Source: Acinetobacter phage vB_AbaS_TCUP2199
Sequence record: ON323491.1
DNA: 64,000 nucleotides
Direction: 5' to 3' (one strand)
How positions within the stretch are numbered: position 1 is the first letter of the stretch; each line of letters starts with the position of its first letter. Both the position numbers and the translations under genes were made by a program. The notes under the pieces are model-generated. The model did no database searches, was not told the DNA's origin, and saw only the letters and a list, made by a program, of their open reading frames with translations. This document shows, in pieces, positions 2,981 through 33,223 of this stretch.

Positions 2981-3946
2981 ATGTATGAATTTAATCCTGA
3001 AAACGTAAACGTTGAACTGCAAGCAGCTTTAAGAAAGAAAAGCTTTTTGGCTGCAAAAGGTATTGCCAACAACATGGTGTTTAATGATTTGGCAGTTATT
3101 CAAGTTCACGACGAAATTTTGCCAAAAATGCAATTTCGTTATGGTGCTGAAAATAACAAGATCATTGACAAAGAACTGGTTTTTATCGGCAACCCAAGTT
3201 TATTGGGTTTATACCAGACACCAAGGGAGCTTTTGGTTTTGGATTGGCTAGTAAGTGCATTGGTCTGTTTATATAACAATGCCAAAAGTATTAGTCCAAA
3301 CAATCGTAATTATGAAAGTGTAAAAAGTCCGCTTTATCATTTGGGTGATATGAGTCCAGTCACTGAATTGACTTTTGGATTTCCCCCAAGTTTTTCAATT
3401 TGCGGATTTATTCAAAGTAATGCAGTCAAGCAGCTTGACGGCTTACATAATCATTATGACTGGTATGACTCATTTTTATTCAGTGCATTAATCGGGATGA
3501 TGGCCCAGCACTGGAAATTATGGAGTGGCAATATCAGTTACCCAGTCCCAGCCAATTACTCATGCACACAACGGAAAAATCTTGATGATCAAATCCGTAA
3601 ATTTGCACGGATACGCCAATGGTCTAGCCAAGTGGCCGAGCAAATCATTGAGTGTCAGAATGTGGCATTGATACCGCGATATTCACACACCAGTAAAAAG
3701 GTGATTTACGAAAACCTGCGTCATTTTGGCAAGCGCGAGAAGCTGGATAACCACTTGTGGCTGACTCGTTCATGGTTAGCGCGTGATCGTTATAACCGAA
3801 TTTCCCGTCAACAAGAATCATTTTTTGACGGTGTGCAAGGTGAATTGCGATTTGAATTAATTCAATTTTTGCTTGACAACTTGATTGCCTTTCAGCGCAC
3901 ACATGAACTTAAAGTCCCTTATTGTGAGAGCTGCCAAAATGATTAA
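2981..3946 (+). CDS. Hypothetical protein (321 aa)
   Basis: Listed ORF in the tightly packed same-strand array. Confidence 0.6.
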   Translation: MYEFNPENVNVELQAALRKKSFLAAKGIANNMVFNDLAVIQVHDEILPKMQFRYGAENNKIIDKELVFIGNPSLLGLYQTPRELLVLDWLVSALVCLYNNAKSISPNNRNYESVKSPLYHLGDMSPVTELTFGFPPSFSICGFIQSNAVKQLDGLHNHYDWYDSFLFSALIGMMAQHWKLWSGNISYPVPANYSCTQRKNLDDQIRKFARIRQWSSQVAEQIIECQNVALIPRYSHTSKKVIYENLRHFGKREKLDNHLWLTRSWLARDRYNRISRQQESFFDGVQGELRFELIQFLLDNLIAFQRTHELKVPYCESCQND

Positions 3947-4151
3947 ATTTGCAACTGTCTGGGTTTTGACTGTGATAGTCACATACAGCGGAACCAACCG
4001 AGTGGCTTTAACCAATTTCCAGCACACATATGGTAGCCGTGAAGAATGTGTGAAGCGTTCTGAATTTTATAGAAAACAGAATGATGGCAACACTAAGTCT
4101 TTTGAAACTTACTGTGCCCCTTCACAAATACCAATGGTCGTCAATAAATAG
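3939..4151 (+). CDS. Small secreted or membrane-anchored protein (N-terminal hydrophobic MIKFATVWVLTVIVTYSG)
   Basis: ATGA overlap with the upstream stop. Trimmed from listed ORF 3885-4151. Confidence 0.45.
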   Translation: MIKFATVWVLTVIVTYSGTNRVALTNFQHTYGSREECVKRSEFYRKQNDGNTKSFETYCAPSQIPMVVNK

Positions 4152-4156
4152 GTGAT

Positions 4157-4642
4157 GTGATGAATAATTTTGCCGAGCAAGATGTAAATACGGTTATCAA
4201 TCCAGAAATGAGCATTCATTTATGGGATGTAAAACCAGAAGCTGTCTATATGGCTGGCCGTTCGCCTTTTTCTCCTGACAAACTGGAAGCGACTTTCCGT
4301 GTCATTTCCCGTGTCCGTGGTCAAGAAGGTGGCTTTATTGTTGTCATGTGCGATAAGCAAGACGCACCGAAATATGACTATCAATATAGTACAGCGGTTA
4401 CGCCTGATACTGTTTTGTTGACTAATTTTCACGTGACAGTTTTTGAAGGCTTGATTTTATATGAAGCTATGTATCGTCAGTATTATAGCTACATATACAA
4501 AACCCAGTATCGTTTATTAACGCCACGTTCTAAGGGTAAAAAACCAGAGCTGCCGATTGTTGAAATCCGCTTGGACCCGATTAGTGGCATGACTTATATG
4601 TGTGACCATGACCTATGTATTTTAGGTGATGGGAACAATTAA
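4157..4642 (+). CDS. Hypothetical protein
   Basis: Listed ORF; compact array. Confidence 0.55.
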   Translation: MMNNFAEQDVNTVINPEMSIHLWDVKPEAVYMAGRSPFSPDKLEATFRVISRVRGQEGGFIVVMCDKQDAPKYDYQYSTAVTPDTVLLTNFHVTVFEGLILYEAMYRQYYSYIYKTQYRLLTPRSKGKKPELPIVEIRLDPISGMTYMCDHDLCILGDGNN

Positions 4643-4653
4643 GGAGTTTTAGC

Positions 4654-4947
4654 ATGGCGAGTAAATTACTTGCACGTATTATTGACGTGCAAACTTCACC
4701 AGTAGATGGCCGTCAATATATTTCACCAGTTGGTGGAACATGTGACACAGTAGTTATTGATGGGCGTTGGGGTGACAGTCGCATACAAAGTGAAGTTGAA
4801 GCTGCCATAGATAAGCGATTAAAAAATGGCATTCTTAAAGAAAAAGTTGGTTATGCCATTTACCGCTATGGTGGTGGCTTAAAACTAATGAGTCTCCACA
4901 TTTTTGACGCTGCAAAGCATGGAAAAATGGAACGTCTATTTTTCTGA
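4654..4947 (+). CDS. Hypothetical protein
   Basis: Listed ORF; GGAG RBS upstream. Confidence 0.55.
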   Translation: MASKLLARIIDVQTSPVDGRQYISPVGGTCDTVVIDGRWGDSRIQSEVEAAIDKRLKNGILKEKVGYAIYRYGGGLKLMSLHIFDAAKHGKMERLFF

Positions 4948-4958
4948 GGAAGGTAAAA

Positions 4959-5378
4959 ATGCTATTACTTAATCAACAAAACACGGCCCCTAAGCGGGGC
5001 CTAATTGGTGCCACTTTGTTGTGTCACCAAACTGGCCGACAATTTTTAGCTAAGCAAGTTGGTATTACAACCAACTATGCAAAAGATCAACAAGGTTTTG
5101 TCTATTCAGATAAAGGTGTTGTATTACTAAATCTTCAAGCAATTGCAGACCGCAAACCAATCGGGCTTTATATAAGTGGCAGTCACTATGGCGCTAAAGT
5201 AAGCGGTTGGAAAGGCGAGAGTTACGGCAAAGTAATTGGCTGCACTGAATGGTTGAGACATTACCGAAGCACGACTGTTTTAATGCAGCAGTTCCGTGTA
5301 AAAATGGACGATGGCTCAATCTGGACTGGTCGAAAAAGTGCAGATTTTGAAGCCATTCTGTTACGGCCAGAAAAATAA
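4959..5378 (+). CDS. Hypothetical protein
   Basis: Listed ORF; AGGAAGG RBS. Confidence 0.55.
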   Translation: MLLLNQQNTAPKRGLIGATLLCHQTGRQFLAKQVGITTNYAKDQQGFVYSDKGVVLLNLQAIADRKPIGLYISGSHYGAKVSGWKGESYGKVIGCTEWLRHYRSTTVLMQQFRVKMDDGSIWTGRKSADFEAILLRPEK

Positions 5379-31155: not shown

Positions 31156-31305
31156 ATGAGCAAACGTGAAGTTGCTGTTGTCATCGTCAAAGCCATTATT
31201 TTAGGGACGTTGCGCTATCTTGAAGATAAATCCAAGGATAAAAAACAACCTAAAAATAAAATTATTTTTAAAGATGGTGTTGACGAAGGAATCGGCCTTG
31301 GCTAA
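31156..31305 (+). CDS. Candidate 49-aa protein with a hydrophobic N-terminus, downstream of the endolysin gene
   Basis: ORF read by eye (MSKREVAVVIVKAIILGTL…); followed by a strong terminator. Below the ORF-track cutoff. Confidence 0.3.
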   Translation: MSKREVAVVIVKAIILGTLRYLEDKSKDKKQPKNKIIFKDGVDEGIGLG

Positions 31306-31390
31306 TATTGGTTTCAAGACGAGGGGCAGCAGTTAAACAGTAGTTCTAACGCAAGTTTGAAACAACCGTTGTATGCAAATCTCCAAGTAT

Positions 31391-31417
31391 AAAAAACCCC
31401 TTTCGGGGGTTTTTTAA
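31391..31417 (+). terminator. Intrinsic terminator AAAAAACCCC-tttc-GGGGGTTTTTT
   Basis: Read from the sequence. Confidence 0.7.
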
Positions 31418-31711
31418 TCGCTTTAGAAAGCAGTAAATTTTAAAGCCTAAATCAATTTATTTTGGATTAGTCTTTTTGATTTCAATATTTAGATACTATT
31501 GTTGCTTTCTAACCGATTAAACTGGCTACGAACTTAGCCAATGAAGTCGAAAGATGGATTGAACAACCCTTTAGTGTTGAGGTTCATTTAAATCTGGCAT
31601 GGCTGGCTTATCCATTTGGTTCTGCAGATAACCAGTGGTTAAAGTAGAGGGGTTCTAACAGCCAAATTGTTTTTAGATATTGATAGAAGCTATAGTAATT
31701 CTTGATATGGA

Positions 31712-31740
31712 CTTAAACAATTAGGGTTCGATTCCCTACG
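31712..31740 (+). other. tRNA T-arm-like element TAGGG-TTCGATT-CCCTA followed by CGCCAGA; no complete cloverleaf could be folded by eye
   Basis: Perfect 5-bp T-stem and canonical T-loop read from the sequence. No 5' partner for the acceptor stem found within 90 nt. Confidence 0.3.
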
Positions 31741-31856
31741 CCAGATGCCATTTATGGGTTATCTATCAAATTGAAGTAAACGAAAGCGCGTAAGTAGTTT
31801 ACGGAAAATTACTGGTGTAGATAGATGTGCTGTGTTACTTCTAGGGTCAAAGGCAC

Positions 31857-31887
31857 ATGGTGGTTCGATTCCCCGATAACCCAACCA
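31857..31887 (+). other. Second tRNA T-arm-like element (GGTGGTTCGATTCCCC…AACCCAACCA)
   Basis: T-loop consensus with a weaker stem; ends in ACCA-like sequence. Confidence 0.25.
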
Positions 31888-32862
31888 ATATTTATAGTTG
31901 ATAATTTCAGTCAACTGTACATCAAAGGTCGCAACTTTGCAGGACAGAAGTTATCAACTATAAATGTTGGAAACAATATTTAGTGAAGCATTCTTGACGA
32001 ACCGCATGAGATGTAAGGGGTAATGGAGACTGTGATGGTCATAGAAGTTACCAGATAAGTTGAAGCGTATGTGGCCCTTTTCAAAGGTTGTGGGCCAAAG
32101 CTGAGCTGACGATCAAACAGATTTAGCATCAACCAAGGTGTTGCTAGTCACTTCACCGAGAATGCTTCCCTAAATGTTGGAATACTCAGGCAAAGGGTAA
32201 ACCGCTGTAGACAGGCCGCAAGGGACAGATACTCTTGGTCAGGGCCGATAAGTTTTTGGGTTATGCAACTCAATTCCAACATTTCCAAATTTGAGGACTG
32301 CCGATTTAGCGGTTGTGCAAGCTCAAAGGGGTTACGTAAGTGCCGCACGACCTACTAGCTAGGAAGGCATAAGCGTAATGGGTGTCACCTACCAGCAGGT
32401 CAACTAAGTACACGTTGATTAATCCTAGTGGTGAGATGCTAGGGAACCCCAGCTAGGGTTCCTAACAATATTTATGGAAACAAATTCATGACTGTGACCT
32501 CTTTAAAAAAAGATAAGCAGTTGATTGTCGGTTAGTTTGGGTATGTGAGGTAACCACTCAAGCGGACAATCTCCTTCCTCACAAGGGTTGAGTTTGGTTC
32601 CATAAGTGTTGTAAATGAGAGAAACAGCCCGTATCCCTGTATGGTTAAGACTGCTCTCAATAGTCTGTGGATTGAAACCTAGCTGGTAACAGCATGAGAC
32701 GGATGCCACGCCTTGTATGGCAACAAACCAGCGAGTGAGTGGAAAGCTCACAACCAACACTTACCATGTTGACTGTCAGACTCAGGACATAAGCGAGGAA
32801 CATAGCAGAGAAATTGCTCTTAGAAGTAGAAGCCTGCTTGACCGACAAGAATGTTGAGTCAG

Positions 32863-32898
32863 CACCCCGACCATTAAATTGGTTGGGGTGTTATTTTA
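32863..32898 (+). terminator. Hairpin CACCCCGACCA-ttaaat-TGGTTGGGGTG followed by TTATTTTA
   Basis: Read from the sequence. Confidence 0.55.
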
Positions 32899-32923
32899 TC
32901 CACGCAATAAAAAGGAAATAACC

Positions 32924-33223
32924 ATGACCCCCGAAGATCAAAAAGTGCTGGACCAAATTGTAGATTTACCGACAGTTTTAAATGTTGAAGGCTTTGGTAT
33001 CACAGAAGCAGACGTTTACAATCAAGCCTGTCAGATTTATGCTAAGTTAGTTTCTGTACCACGTACCCTGCAACATGAACAAATGCTAGACTTTACTTAC
33101 AAAGAGCTTGGTTATGAAGGCGGTGCCACAGAAGCTTACCAAGTTGGAGCTGTACAAGCAGCCTTTAACATCAAACGTATGGTTGAAAAAGGAATGGCTA
33201 AACAGGAGAAAGAGAATGTTTAA
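32924..33223 (+). CDS. Hypothetical protein
   Basis: Trimmed to the ATG after AAAAGGAAATAACC. Confidence 0.5.
   Translation: MTPEDQKVLDQIVDLPTVLNVEGFGITEADVYNQACQIYAKLVSVPRTLQHEQMLDFTYKELGYEGGATEAYQVGAVQAAFNIKRMVEKGMAKQEKENV

What the first reader, a model, noticed from the sequence alone, without database searches (positions are those of the whole stretch)
31420..32860. 1.45 kb ORF-free structured region with tRNA T-arm motifs and internal repeats; candidate degenerate tRNA cluster and/or large non-coding RNA
Genes are packed on the + strand from 2.6 to 50 kb with overlapping stops and starts. Between a strong terminator at 31391-31417 and another hairpin at 32863-32898 there are 1.45 kb with no + strand ORF of 60 aa or more. 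The stretch holds two canonical T-loop motifs (GGTTCGATTCC at 31717 and 31862), the first with a perfect 5-bp T-stem and acceptor-like 3' sequence, but I could not fold a complete cloverleaf by eye. The motifs AAATGTTGGAA (31953 and 32164, inverted at 32273) and CAATATTTAT(A/G)G (about 31877, 31964 and 32448) recur. A 12-bp inverted repeat TATAGTTGATAA/TTATCAACTATA (31883/31941) and many other stem-formers are present, and GC is higher than the flanks. T5-like phages place tRNA clusters next to lysis genes, and large ornate phage RNAs (GOLLD/ROOL class) often sit next to tRNAs. This could be a decayed tRNA array plus a novel large structured RNA.
Basis: partly seen in the sequence, partly recalled or inferred. 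Interest (0 to 1): 0.75.

Follow-up and report, generated by a model that had tools for sequence, protein, structure and literature searches.

The report
Phage stable-RNA array with tRNA-like genes
The gene-free 1.45 kb of this Acinetobacter phage is a cluster of folded non-coding RNA genes: two oversized tRNA look-alikes, several phage-specific RNA domains, and one member of an RNA family absent from Rfam that sits in the tRNA gene clusters of hundreds of unrelated phages.

Summary
The stretch 31418-32898 has no credible ORF and is bounded by two intrinsic terminators. It folds as RNA on the + strand.

The window is an Acinetobacter baumannii phage, 87-100% identical across this region to fJoAci01, EAb13, fJoAci04 and Mystique. 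Those four carry a tRNA-Asn here; this phage has lost it cleanly.

What remains is not a decayed tRNA array:
- Two oversized tRNA-like RNAs (31593-31752, 31755-31887). Each has an acceptor stem, a T arm and a cloverleaf-like four-way junction. The acceptor stem of the first covaries between phages. The relatives encode a 3' CCA after unit 1; this window reads GCCA there.
- Long-range helical domains, with many compensatory base changes.
- At 32612-32755, a member of a phage-wide RNA family that Rfam 15 lacks. It has a 7-8 bp stem of free sequence closing an invariant 23-nt loop (CCCGWAUCCCUGUAUGGUYAAGA), plus two further covarying helices.

The family occurs in about 280 GenBank phages (Ackermannviridae, Vibrio and Acinetobacter phages) and in diverse IMG/VR contigs. 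In most loci it lies on the tRNA strand, inside or beside the tRNA cluster.

It is not GOLLD, ROOL, tmRNA, RNase P or an intron. The closest analogue is T4 RNA C/D. Its function is unknown.

The parts
31391..31415 (+). Intrinsic terminator that ends the lysis-gene transcript (AAAAAACCCC-TTTC-GGGGGTTTTTT).
   Evidence: Sequence read; coordinates. The Rfam E-value hits here are all terminator-like sRNA matches.
31418..31592 (+). Conserved AT-rich leader with small hairpins (for example GGCTA-CGAAC-TTAGCC at 31524-31539). No promoter was identified. Position 31592/31593 is where the relatives carry tRNA-Asn(GTT), which this phage has lost.
   Evidence: Alignment A1. ARAGORN finds tRNA-Asn in L001-L004 and none in the window. 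Identity to relatives is 92.6-95.3%. The promoter scan finds nothing convincing here.
31593..31752 (+). Oversized tRNA-like RNA, unit 1 (about 157 nt).
- Acceptor stem: TCTGGCA / CGCCAGA.
- Two arms: a long D-like arm with invariant loop CUGCAGA, and a long anticodon-like arm with invariant loop GCUAUAGUAA.
- T arm: TAGGG-TTCGATT-CCCTA.
- 3' end: the window reads U then GCCA; the relatives encode N73 plus CCA.
   Evidence: RNAalifold on four distinct sequences gives a four-way junction, with 9 of 41 pairs compensatory, including 4 of 6 acceptor pairs. Acceptor variants: UCUGACA/UGUCAGA (EAb13), GUGGGCA/UGCCCAU (Mystique), GCUGG../..CCAGC (fJoAci04).
31755..31887 (+). Oversized tRNA-like RNA, unit 2 (about 133 nt).
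- Acceptor: TGGGTTATC / GATAACCCA, followed by A and CCA.
- Two internal arms.
- T loop: TTCGATT.
- Absent from fJoAci04 and Mystique.
   Evidence: RNAalifold gives a four-way junction. Only two distinct sequences are available, and 2 pairs are compensatory. Presence and absence are read from A1.
31885..31970 (+). Domain A: a long hairpin closed by a 20-bp helix, CCAATATTTATAGTTGATAA / TTATCAACTATAAATGTTGG. Its 5' strand begins with the CCA of unit 2.
   Evidence: A1 shows TA/TA changed to CG/CG on both strands in EAb13 and fJoAci04. Coordinates.
31974..32180 (+). Domain B: about 205 nt closed by CAAUAUUUAG-U-GAAGCAUUCU / AGAAUGCUUC-CC-CUAAAUGUUG, with four internal hairpins.
   Evidence: fold_alignment: 57 pairs, 7 of them compensatory. 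Examples: GGUAAU/AGUUACC to GGUGAU/AGUCACC; GCUAAGCUGU/ACAGAUUUAGC to GUUCUACUGG/CCAGUUGGAAC. MFE z-score is -3.95 on the + strand and -2.06 on the - strand.
32172..32284 (+). Domain B': closed by AAAUGUUGGAAU / AUUCCAACAUUU. Its 5' strand overlaps the 3' strand of domain B, so the two are alternative or competing pairings. Mystique has a 58-nt deletion inside this domain.
   Evidence: Covariation GGAAU/AUUCC (window) against GGAUU/AAUCC (EAb13), read.
32290..32379 (+). A conserved hairpin (32290-32327), followed by a hypervariable insert (32328-32379) whose sequence and length differ in every lineage.
32381..32462 (+). Two conserved hairpin domains: GGUGUCACC...GGUGAGAUGC and GGGAACCCC-AGCUA-GGGUUCC.
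   Evidence: fold_alignment shows compensatory GUCAAC/GUUGAU to CUAUC/GAUAG in Mystique.
32465..32612 (+). Domain C: closed by the long-range helix ACAAUAUUUAUGGAAAC / GGUUCCAUAAGUGUUGU. The interior is replaced in Mystique.
   Evidence: GG..A/U..CC becomes AA..G/C..UU in Mystique. In 32380-32625 as a whole, 15 of 80 pairs are compensatory.
32612..32755 (+). Member of the phage-wide 'invariant-loop' RNA family.
- 5' flank: AUGAG, 32615-32619.
- P1: 32617-32627 with 32651-32658.
- Invariant loop: 32628-32650.
- Junction: AAUAGUC, 32659-32665.
- P2: 32665-32668 with 32728-32731.
- P3: GUGAG-UGGAAAG-CUCAC, 32735-32751.
   Evidence: - A covariance model built from 8 non-Acinetobacter members hits this site at 66.1 bits, E = 2.6e-11, over the full model.
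- Across 12 members, 89% of cells pair against 60% when shuffled, 15 of 17 pairs change on both sides, and the covariation score is 0.826 against 0.257.
- Identity to the relatives is 96.5-99.3%.
32756..32860 (+). 3' extension specific to the Acinetobacter phages, nearly invariant (97.9-98.6%), with predicted hairpins.
   Evidence: A 22-mer from it has no IMG/VR match.
32861..32898 (+). Intrinsic terminator (13-bp stem, then ATTTTAT) that ends the RNA array. The next ORF starts at 32925.
   Evidence: A compensatory G/A to A/U change in the stem or loop is visible in relatives.

Best explanation
The region is the phage's stable-RNA (tRNA-type) gene cluster. It works as RNA made from the + strand.

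**Inferred, not shown**
- It is read between the terminator at 31391-31415 and the terminator at 32861-32898, as one long precursor or a few.
- The precursor is cut into separate stable RNAs by the host enzymes that mature tRNA clusters. RNase P would cut at the 5' side of the two tRNA-like units. RNase E or 3' trimming would act at the AU-rich junction that follows each CCA (CCA-AUAUUUA).

**Products**
- Two oversized tRNA-like RNAs. They keep the acceptor stem, T arm and 3' end of a tRNA, but long ornate arms replace the D and anticodon arms, so they cannot decode.
- Three or four helical domains specific to this phage group.
- A roughly 140-nt member of a phage-wide RNA family. Its stems vary freely while its 23-nt loop is invariant in phages of Acinetobacter, enterobacteria, Vibrio and unknown hosts.

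**Most likely role (inferred)**
- The RNAs act in trans on a conserved host component of tRNA handling or translation, for example as mimics, decoys or binders.
- They are not mere spacers for processing the phage's own tRNAs. This phage has lost its only tRNA yet keeps every RNA module, and the family member is the best-conserved sequence of the locus.
For: **Not coding**
- No ORF longer than 52 aa on the + strand or 85 aa on the - strand.
- No PHROG or Pfam match for any of them.
- Relatives differ by indels and whole-module gains and losses.

**RNA, + strand**
- Compensatory changes: 7 of 57 pairs, 15 of 80, 9 of 41.
- Invariant G-U pairs would be A-C mismatches on the other strand.
- MFE z-scores are -3.95 and -3.53 on the + strand against -2.06 and -1.26 on the - strand.

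**tRNA locus**
- All four relatives have tRNA-Asn at this spot.
- The tRNA-like units have an acceptor stem and a T arm. In the relatives, unit 1 is followed by an encoded N73 and CCA, and its acceptor pairs covary.

**Family**
- The motif is exact in unrelated IMG/VR contigs and present in about 280 GenBank phages.
- Covariation statistics and the independent covariance-model hit at E = 2.6e-11.
- In every locus where ARAGORN finds tRNA genes the family member is on their strand, and in most it lies inside or beside the cluster.
- The family core and its 3' extension are 96.5-99.3% identical among the five Acinetobacter phages. The endolysin gene is 90-93% and the downstream ORF 69-94%.

**Precedent**
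- T4 makes two stable RNAs, C and D, from its tRNA cluster, which lies near the lysozyme gene (PMC3014915).
Against: - There are no expression data, so transcription, precursor processing and the mature ends are all inferred.
- No convincing sigma-70 promoter lies after the first terminator.
- The molecular partner of the invariant loop is unknown. The loop shows no significant complementarity or identity to E. coli 16S, 23S or 5S rRNA or to three tRNAs.
- No protein gene consistently accompanies the family.
- Within the Acinetobacter group only five close genomes exist. Several long helices, including the closing helix of domain B and the whole 3' extension, never vary and so carry no covariation evidence.
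- In the window, unit 1 ends in U-GCCA rather than N-CCA, and its acceptor stem has an A-C mismatch.
- Three family members (L019, L010, L023) sit directly upstream of an ORF with no terminator between, which would also fit a cis-acting role there.
Confidence: 0.8

Rival explanations
1. Decayed tRNA array: the T-loop units are pseudogenes left after tRNA genes lost function, and the rest is drifting spacer.
For: - ARAGORN finds no tRNA in the window.
- This phage has demonstrably lost tRNA-Asn.
- Unit 1 in the window has an A-C mismatch in the acceptor stem and no encoded CCA.
- Units come and go between relatives.
Against: - Unit 1 keeps a four-way junction through compensatory changes in 9 pairs, including 4 of 6 acceptor pairs, across four lineages. 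Its two apical loops are invariant.
- The non-tRNA part is more conserved than the flanking genes and is full of compensatory pairs.
- Similar oversized units with 7/7 acceptor pairing occur in Vi01 and other phages.
Confidence: 0.05
2. A cluster of very small protein-coding genes, as annotated in EAb13 and Mystique.
For: PHANOTATE and the Mystique annotation tiny CDS across the region.
Against: - The PHANOTATE scores for those CDS are near zero (-0.08 to -6), against hundreds to thousands for real genes.
- The called ORFs differ between relatives in position and strand.
- No ORF has a PHROG or Pfam hit.
- Substitutions are paired across helices rather than codon-periodic.
- fJoAci01 and fJoAci04 (Prodigal) call none.
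Confidence: 0.03
3. A DNA-level element, such as a replication origin or a packaging or recombination site. It would lie upstream of the replication module, with the repeated 9-mers acting as protein-binding iterons.
For: - CAATATTTA occurs four times and AAATGTTGG three times, all clustered here.
- An AT-rich leader is present.
- The DNA polymerase gene begins about 800 nt downstream.
- The region is a hotspot of module gain and loss.
Against: - The two 9-mers are the complementary strands of the helices that close domains A, B and C. Those helices extend into covarying pairs and contain G-U pairs that work only in + strand RNA.
- The family member occurs in phages with quite different neighbouring genes, yet on the tRNA strand wherever ARAGORN finds tRNAs.
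Confidence: 0.05
4. A functional analogue of GOLLD/ROOL: one large RNA that self-assembles into a multimeric RNA-only particle.
For: - Size about 1.3 kb, location next to the tRNA locus in a phage, and high G+C.
- Near-identical closing helices in three domains could swap partners.
- Palindromic invariant loops (CUGCAG, CUAUAG) could form kissing contacts.
- GOLLD and ROOL form homo-oligomeric complexes (PMC12286853).
Against: - No Rfam hit to GOLLD, ROOL or any large RNA family, even at E <= 10.
- Modules are gained and lost independently between close relatives, and only 140 nt are shared with other phage lineages. This argues for several separable RNAs rather than one obligate fold.
- tRNA-like units with CCA ends suggest processing into pieces.
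Confidence: 0.07

Closest known systems
Bacteriophage T4 RNA C and RNA D (species 1 and 2 stable RNAs, genes rnaC and rnaD)
   Same: - They are encoded inside the phage tRNA gene cluster, which lies a few kb from the lysozyme gene, on the tRNA strand. They are 139 and 119 nt long.
- rnaC has a canonical T arm (CCGGG-UUCGAAU-CCCGG) near its 3' end.
- rnaD starts with AUGAG one nucleotide after a tRNA CCA, as the family members do.
- Their roles are unknown (PMC3014915).
   Different: - There is no detectable sequence homology: the family model R1 finds nothing in the T4 locus.
- The motif search of the phage collection reported no T4-like record among its listed hits, which were of other phage groups.
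- The Acinetobacter array is far larger and has extra domains.
- Processing of T4 RNA C/D by RNase P and RNase E is recalled from older literature, not tested here.
GOLLD and ROOL large ornate RNAs (Rfam)
   Same: Large, G+C-rich, highly structured RNAs of unknown function, often phage-borne and next to tRNA genes (general knowledge; PMC12286853).
   Different: - No covariance-model match.
- A modular array rather than one conserved fold.
- Hosts are Proteobacteria, not Lactobacillales or rumen and lake metagenomes.
tmRNA tRNA-like domain and bacterial Y-RNA (YrlA) tRNA-like modules
   Same: An acceptor stem plus a T arm, without a decoding anticodon arm. The only Rfam trace in the region is a 15-nt match to the tmRNA T arm.
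   Different: - No tag reading frame and no pseudoknot series.
- ARAGORN and Rfam call no tmRNA.
- No G3-U70 pair.
- No YrlA match.
Canonical phage tRNA genes
   Same: Same locus, same strand, same T loop (GGTTCGATTCC), a 7-bp acceptor stem, and in the relatives an encoded discriminator and CCA after unit 1.
   Different: - 133-157 nt instead of 75-90.
- No 7-nt anticodon loop.
- Rejected by ARAGORN and by the Rfam tRNA model.

Membership tests
tRNA (Rfam RF00005 / ARAGORN) | Recognised by tRNA covariance or heuristic models as a cloverleaf of 70-95 nt | tested here: not met
   ARAGORN finds 0 genes in 64 kb. There is no RF00005 hit at gathering score or at E <= 10.
tRNA (Rfam RF00005 / ARAGORN) | Acceptor stem of 7 bp stacked on a T arm with a UUCRANN loop, then discriminator and CCA | tested here: met
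   Unit 1 and unit 2 both have the acceptor stem and T arm. For unit 1, the CCA is encoded in EAb13, fJoAci04 and Mystique; the window reads GCCA. Unit 2 of the window is followed by A and CCA.
tRNA (Rfam RF00005 / ARAGORN) | Anticodon arm with a 7-nt loop | tested here: not met
   The corresponding arm is an 8-bp helix carrying a roughly 40-nt branched extension with a 10-nt apical loop.
GOLLD (Rfam) / ROOL (Rfam) | Match to the family covariance model | tested here: not met
   No hit in the window at gathering score, nor at E <= 10 on 31300-33000 and 32440-32905. The homologous Ackermannviridae regions give none either.
GOLLD (Rfam) / ROOL (Rfam) | Homo-oligomeric RNA-only assembly | not testable with these tools
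   Needs native gels or cryo-EM.
tmRNA | tRNA-like domain plus tag-peptide reading frame and pseudoknots | tested here: not met
   ARAGORN reports no tmRNA. Rfam gives only an 11-bit fragment on the T arm.
Group I / group II introns, RNase P RNA, 6S, riboswitches and other Rfam 15 families | Match to any of the 4227 covariance models | tested here: not met
   Searches return only terminator-like sRNA noise.
T4 RNA C/D-type stable RNAs of phage tRNA clusters | Non-tRNA stable RNA gene inside or at the phage tRNA cluster, on the tRNA strand, 100-200 nt, with a tRNA-like 3' part | tested here: met
   Location and architecture are met.
T4 RNA C/D-type stable RNAs of phage tRNA clusters | Sequence or structure homology to T4 rnaC or rnaD | tested here: not met
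   Model R1 finds nothing in the T4 locus. Reading the T4 sequence shows only the generic T arm and the AUGAG start in common. The tRNA-like units themselves were not compared with rnaC by a model.
T4 RNA C/D-type stable RNAs of phage tRNA clusters | Accumulates as a stable processed RNA in infected cells | not testable with these tools
   No transcriptome data are available for these phages.
Invariant-loop phage RNA family (defined here; not in Rfam 15) | P1 stem of free sequence closing the loop CCCGWAUCCCUGUAUGGUYAAGA, flanked by UGAG and (C)AAUAGU | tested here: met
   Window 32614-32665. P1 in the Acinetobacter phages has a 1-3 nt A bulge.
Invariant-loop phage RNA family (defined here; not in Rfam 15) | Long-range P2 (CNGG/CCNG) after CAAAC, and a P3 hairpin with a UGGAAAG loop | tested here: met
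   Window P2 has 3 of 4 pairs. P3 is GUGAG/CUCAC with loop UGGAAAG. The full-length model match has E = 2.6e-11.

The most novel reading that the evidence does not exclude
The invariant-loop RNA would be a new class of trans-acting RNA in virulent phages.
- It would be carried in the tRNA clusters of many unrelated phage lineages.
- Its 23-nt loop would capture a universally conserved bacterial factor of tRNA metabolism or translation, or a tRNA-targeting defence nuclease.
- The oversized tRNA-like RNAs would be matured like tRNAs and would serve as non-decoding mimics or decoys.
- This would also give the first functional handle on the 50-year-old puzzle of T4 RNA C and D.
Probability: 0.3. 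Interest if true: 0.85.

Novelty: new variant of a known kind. Interest (0 to 1): 0.7.

Why it matters
- Phage tRNA clusters are now seen as counter-defence and translation-tuning modules, but the non-tRNA RNAs inside them have been ignored since T4 RNA C and D were sequenced in the 1970s.
- This work defines, with strong covariation, a compact RNA family with an invariant 23-nt loop. It is present in about 280 sequenced phages, including the well-studied Vi01/CBA120 group, where it is unannotated or overlaid by spurious 'hypothetical protein' calls.
- It also shows that oversized tRNA-like RNAs recur in such clusters.
- The Acinetobacter phages are therapy candidates that can be grown and engineered. 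Their RNA array is a single removable block between two terminators, so the function is directly testable.
- At the least, the result corrects the annotation of several deposited genomes.

Tried and rejected
- **Known RNA families:** Rfam 15 at gathering score on the whole window, and in E-value mode on two sub-regions, gave nothing but terminator look-alikes. The Ackermannviridae homologues gave the same result.
- **RNase P and T-box resemblance:** I noticed short word similarities to E. coli RNase P RNA (CUGGUAACAG, GGAAAG) and to the T-box UGGN motif. No covariance model supports RNase P. The UGGN base does not covary with the discriminator of the neighbouring tRNA-like units. I dropped both as leads from memory.
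- **Pairing or mimicry of host RNA:** the loop has no significant complementarity or identity to E. coli 16S, 23S or 5S rRNA or to three tRNAs, compared with shuffles.
- **Host or plasmid copies:** none in 5,426 E. coli genomes or in PLSDB. The 31 hits to a 17-mer in GTDB genomes lack the flanking motif and match the number expected by chance.
- **Metagenome scan:** the exact 23-mer gave 0 hits.
- **More relatives of the Acinetobacter array:** the DNA polymerase query found no viral contig. 18-22-mers from domains B and C and from the 3' extension gave no hits or only unrelated coding hits.
- **Conserved protein partner:** same-strand ORFs within 2.5 kb of 11 family members share nothing obvious.
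- **Literature:** no paper holds the motif string. Searches on Ackermannviridae/Kuttervirus ncRNA found nothing relevant. The large viral structured-RNA screen (PMC10690425) does not mention these phages, but its 10,006 candidates could include this motif.
Full report
**1. What the window is**

The 1.7 kb around the finding matches four Acinetobacter baumannii phages at 87-100% coverage and 89-94% identity. They are fJoAci01, EAb13, fJoAci04 and Mystique, each about 77-82 kb. The gene upstream of the region is an N-acetylmuramidase endolysin. A DNA polymerase gene starts about 800 nt downstream.

**2. Check of the observation**

- Between the terminator at 31391-31415 and the terminator at 32861-32898, the longest + strand ORF is 52 aa and the longest - strand ORF is 85 aa.
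- None of these ORFs matches a PHROG or Pfam family.
- GGTTCGATTCC occurs exactly twice in the 64 kb, at 31725 and 31862.
- CAATATTTA occurs four times, all within 31483-32474.
- AAATGTTGG occurs at 31962 and 32172, and inverted at 32276.
- The 12-bp inverted repeat is at 31893-31904 / 31951-31962.
- G+C rises to 0.43-0.47 in the 3' two-thirds of the region.
- ARAGORN finds no tRNA or tmRNA in the whole window.
- Rfam 15 has no hit at gathering score. In E-value mode it gives only terminator look-alikes and a 15-nt T-arm fragment.

**3. It is the phage's tRNA locus, and this phage has lost its tRNA**

All four relatives carry tRNA-Asn(GTT) exactly between window positions 31592 and 31593. The window has a clean deletion there. 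The alignment shows a modular locus:
- fJoAci04 has an extra 200-nt T-loop unit.
- Unit 2 is absent from fJoAci04 and Mystique.
- Hairpin A sits at a different place in EAb13.
- A 50-nt segment (32328-32379) differs in every lineage.
- Mystique has a 58-nt deletion and a replaced interior in domain C.

**4. It is RNA, on the + strand**

*Compensatory changes.* Even with only five close genomes, they are numerous.
- Domain B (31972-32186): 7 of 57 predicted pairs.
- 32380-32625: 15 of 80 pairs. This includes the long-range helix ACAAUAUUUAUGGAAAC / GGUUCCAUAAGUGUUGU, which becomes ..AUAAAGAC / GUCUUUAU.. in Mystique.
- Unit 1: 9 of 41 pairs.

*Strand.*
- Many invariant G-U pairs would be A-C mismatches on the other strand.
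- Fold z-scores are -3.95 and -3.53 on the + strand, against -2.06 and -1.26 on the - strand.

That second helix covaries (GGAAU/AUUCC against GGAUU/AAUCC), so alternative pairings are possible.

**5. The two T-loop units are oversized tRNA-like RNAs, not pseudogenes**

For unit 1, RNAalifold independently returns a four-way junction:
- an acceptor stem;
- a long D-like arm with invariant loop CUGCAGA;
- a long anticodon-like arm with invariant loop GCUAUAGUAA;
- a T arm.

The acceptor stem of unit 1 differs in each lineage and stays paired:

| Phage | Acceptor stem | 3' end after the stem |
|---|---|---|
| window | UCUGGCA / CGCCAGA | U, then GCCA |
| EAb13 | UCUGACA / UGUCAGA | C, then CCA |
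| Mystique | GUGGGCA / UGCCCAU | A, then CCA |
| fJoAci04 | GCUGG.. / ..CCAGC | A, then CCA |

- Unit 2 folds the same way, but only two distinct sequences are available.
- In the relatives, and after unit 2 in the window, each CCA is followed by AUAUUUA. That is why CCAATATTTA recurs.
- A simple scan finds similar 125-210-nt units with 6-7 of 7 acceptor pairs in Vi01, P46FS4, Vibrio phage YC and uncultured phages.

**6. The best-conserved part belongs to a phage-wide RNA family**

*Discovery.* A 26-mer from the most conserved 3' part of the region (32626-32651) is exact in two unrelated IMG/VR contigs. One of them is Salmonella phage P46FS4 (Ackermannviridae). There the motif lies in a 2.4-kb ORF-poor region next to the tRNA cluster, and that region is conserved in 707 phage records.

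*Distribution.*
- The motif itself is in about 280 GenBank phages of Salmonella, Klebsiella, Escherichia, Dickeya, Vibrio, Acinetobacter and other hosts. It is nearly always unannotated.
- A degenerate pattern finds it in 17 IMG/VR loci, on contigs from 13 kb to 358 kb.
- Family members lie on the same strand as tRNA genes in every locus where ARAGORN finds tRNAs. In most of those they lie inside or beside the cluster: six nucleotides after a tRNA CCA in L019, and just before tRNAs in K452, L013 and Vi01. Five loci have no tRNA call (the window, L008, L010, L014, L016), and in L005 and L024 the only tRNA lies several kb away.
- The family is absent from 5,426 E. coli genomes, from PLSDB plasmids and, apart from chance 17-mer hits, from GTDB genomes.

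*Signature*:
- (A/U)UGAG;
- P1, 7 bp of free sequence plus a G-C pair;
- the invariant loop CCCGWAUCCCUGUAUGGUYAAGA;
- (C)AAUAGU;
- the 5' strand of P2, followed by UGGA;
- a variable insert of 40-250 nt;
- CAAAC, then the 3' strand of P2;
- P3, a hairpin with loop UGGAAAG.

*Covariation.* The test used 12 members with the variable insert removed.

| Measure | Observed | Control |
|---|---|---|
| Cells forming a standard pair | 89% | 60% (shuffled; 0 of 500 shuffles reach the observed value) |
| Pairs changed on both sides | 15 of 17 | - |
| Covariation score | 0.826 | 0.257 (shuffled); 0.07-0.18 (slid controls) |

*Independent test.* A covariance model built only from eight non-Acinetobacter members finds window 32612-32755 over its full length at 66 bits, E = 2.6e-11. 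There is one copy in the window and none in T4.

*Conservation.* Among the five Acinetobacter phages this segment and its 3' extension are 96.5-99.3% identical. The endolysin gene is 90-93% identical and the downstream ORF 69-94%.

**7. How it most likely works**

*Shown.*
- The region is non-coding.
- It is under selection for + strand RNA structure.
- It is organised as tRNA-like genes plus helical domains plus one family member.
- It is bounded by terminators.

*Inferred.*
- Transcription is as a precursor.
- Maturation is by the host tRNA-processing enzymes. RNase P would act at the acceptor 5' ends. RNase E and exonucleases would act at the CCA-AUAUUUA junctions. The CCA enzyme would complete the 3' end where the CCA is not encoded.
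- This follows the T4 tRNA cluster, which also yields two non-tRNA stable RNAs, C and D, of unknown role (PMC3014915). The RNase P and RNase E steps in T4 are from my own recollection of the older literature.

*Role.*
- This phage has lost its only tRNA but keeps every module. The RNAs are therefore not merely processing spacers for phage tRNAs.
- The loop is invariant in phages of very different hosts, while its stem is free to vary. That points to recognition of a conserved partner. I could not identify it.
  - There is no rRNA or tRNA complementarity or mimicry above chance.
  - There is no constant neighbouring gene.
- My working model, at about 30%, is a mimic, decoy or binder of host tRNA-handling or tRNA-targeting factors.

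**8. Rivals**

| Rival | Main evidence against |
|---|---|
| Decayed tRNA array | Covariation, and conservation above that of the flanking genes |
| Small ORFs | Inconsistent, near-zero-score gene calls and no family hits |
| DNA element (origin or iterons) | The repeats are complementary helix strands with G-U pairs and covarying extensions |
| GOLLD/ROOL-type assembly | Not a member by covariance model. A functional analogy cannot be excluded, but independent module gain and loss, and CCA ends, suggest several separable RNAs |

**9. Novelty**

- No Rfam 15 family matches, and the deposited genomes carry no annotation for it.
- No paper in the library holds the motif string.
- The large viral screen (PMC10690425) may list it among its 10,006 unnamed candidates; I could not check.
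- I class it as a new variant of a known kind: non-tRNA stable RNAs of phage tRNA clusters, and large structured phage RNAs beside tRNAs.
- The invariant-loop family is the part most worth following up.

Noticed in passing
window 31592/31593; L001-L004 about 1791-1871: This phage has cleanly lost the tRNA-Asn(GTT) gene that all four GenBank relatives carry. It therefore encodes no canonical tRNA at all.
   Followed up: yes
L002 (EAb13) 2181-2260: ARAGORN calls a 'tRNA-Pyl(cta)' inside tRNA-like unit 2 of EAb13. It is most likely a false positive caused by the tRNA-like fold.
   Followed up: partly
L002 1698-3138; L004 1969-2870: EAb13 (PHANOTATE) and Mystique annotate 6-9 tiny 'hypothetical protein' genes across the RNA array. 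Their scores are near zero and their positions and strands are inconsistent, so they are probably spurious.
   Followed up: partly
L007 (Salmonella phage Vi01) 1011-5124: - A 4.1-kb stretch of the RefSeq record has no annotated feature.
- It holds five tRNAs by ARAGORN, the invariant-loop RNA (about 2987-3052 and onward) and several oversized tRNA-like units (1467-1613, 2086-2211, 4841-4995).
   Followed up: partly
Hit H11, Salmonella phage pSal-SNUABM-02 63835-67020: An HNH endonuclease gene is inserted within the homologous non-coding RNA region of this Ackermannviridae phage. This recalls the segB gene inside the T4 tRNA cluster.
   Followed up: no
L015 (IMG/VR contig of 358 kb), whole locus: An uncultured jumbo-phage contig carries 13 tRNAs and a tmRNA (tag ANDNALPMAA) within a few kb of its invariant-loop RNA.
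   Followed up: no
L004 (Mystique) 3825-4334 and 4364 onward: The DNA polymerase gene of Mystique is annotated as two consecutive CDS. The gene may be split, frameshifted or interrupted.
   Followed up: no
window 31623-31630 and about 31697-31706: The apical loops of the two long arms of unit 1 are invariant and contain palindromes (CUGCAG, CUAUAG). The fJoAci04-only unit shares the CUGCAG loop. These could be kissing-loop contacts.
   Followed up: no
L056 (T4) 5172-5168, and family members: T4 RNA D begins with AUGAG one nucleotide after the CCA of tRNA-Arg. The invariant-loop family has a conserved (A/U)UGAG just 5' of P1. I found no other similarity.
   Followed up: partly
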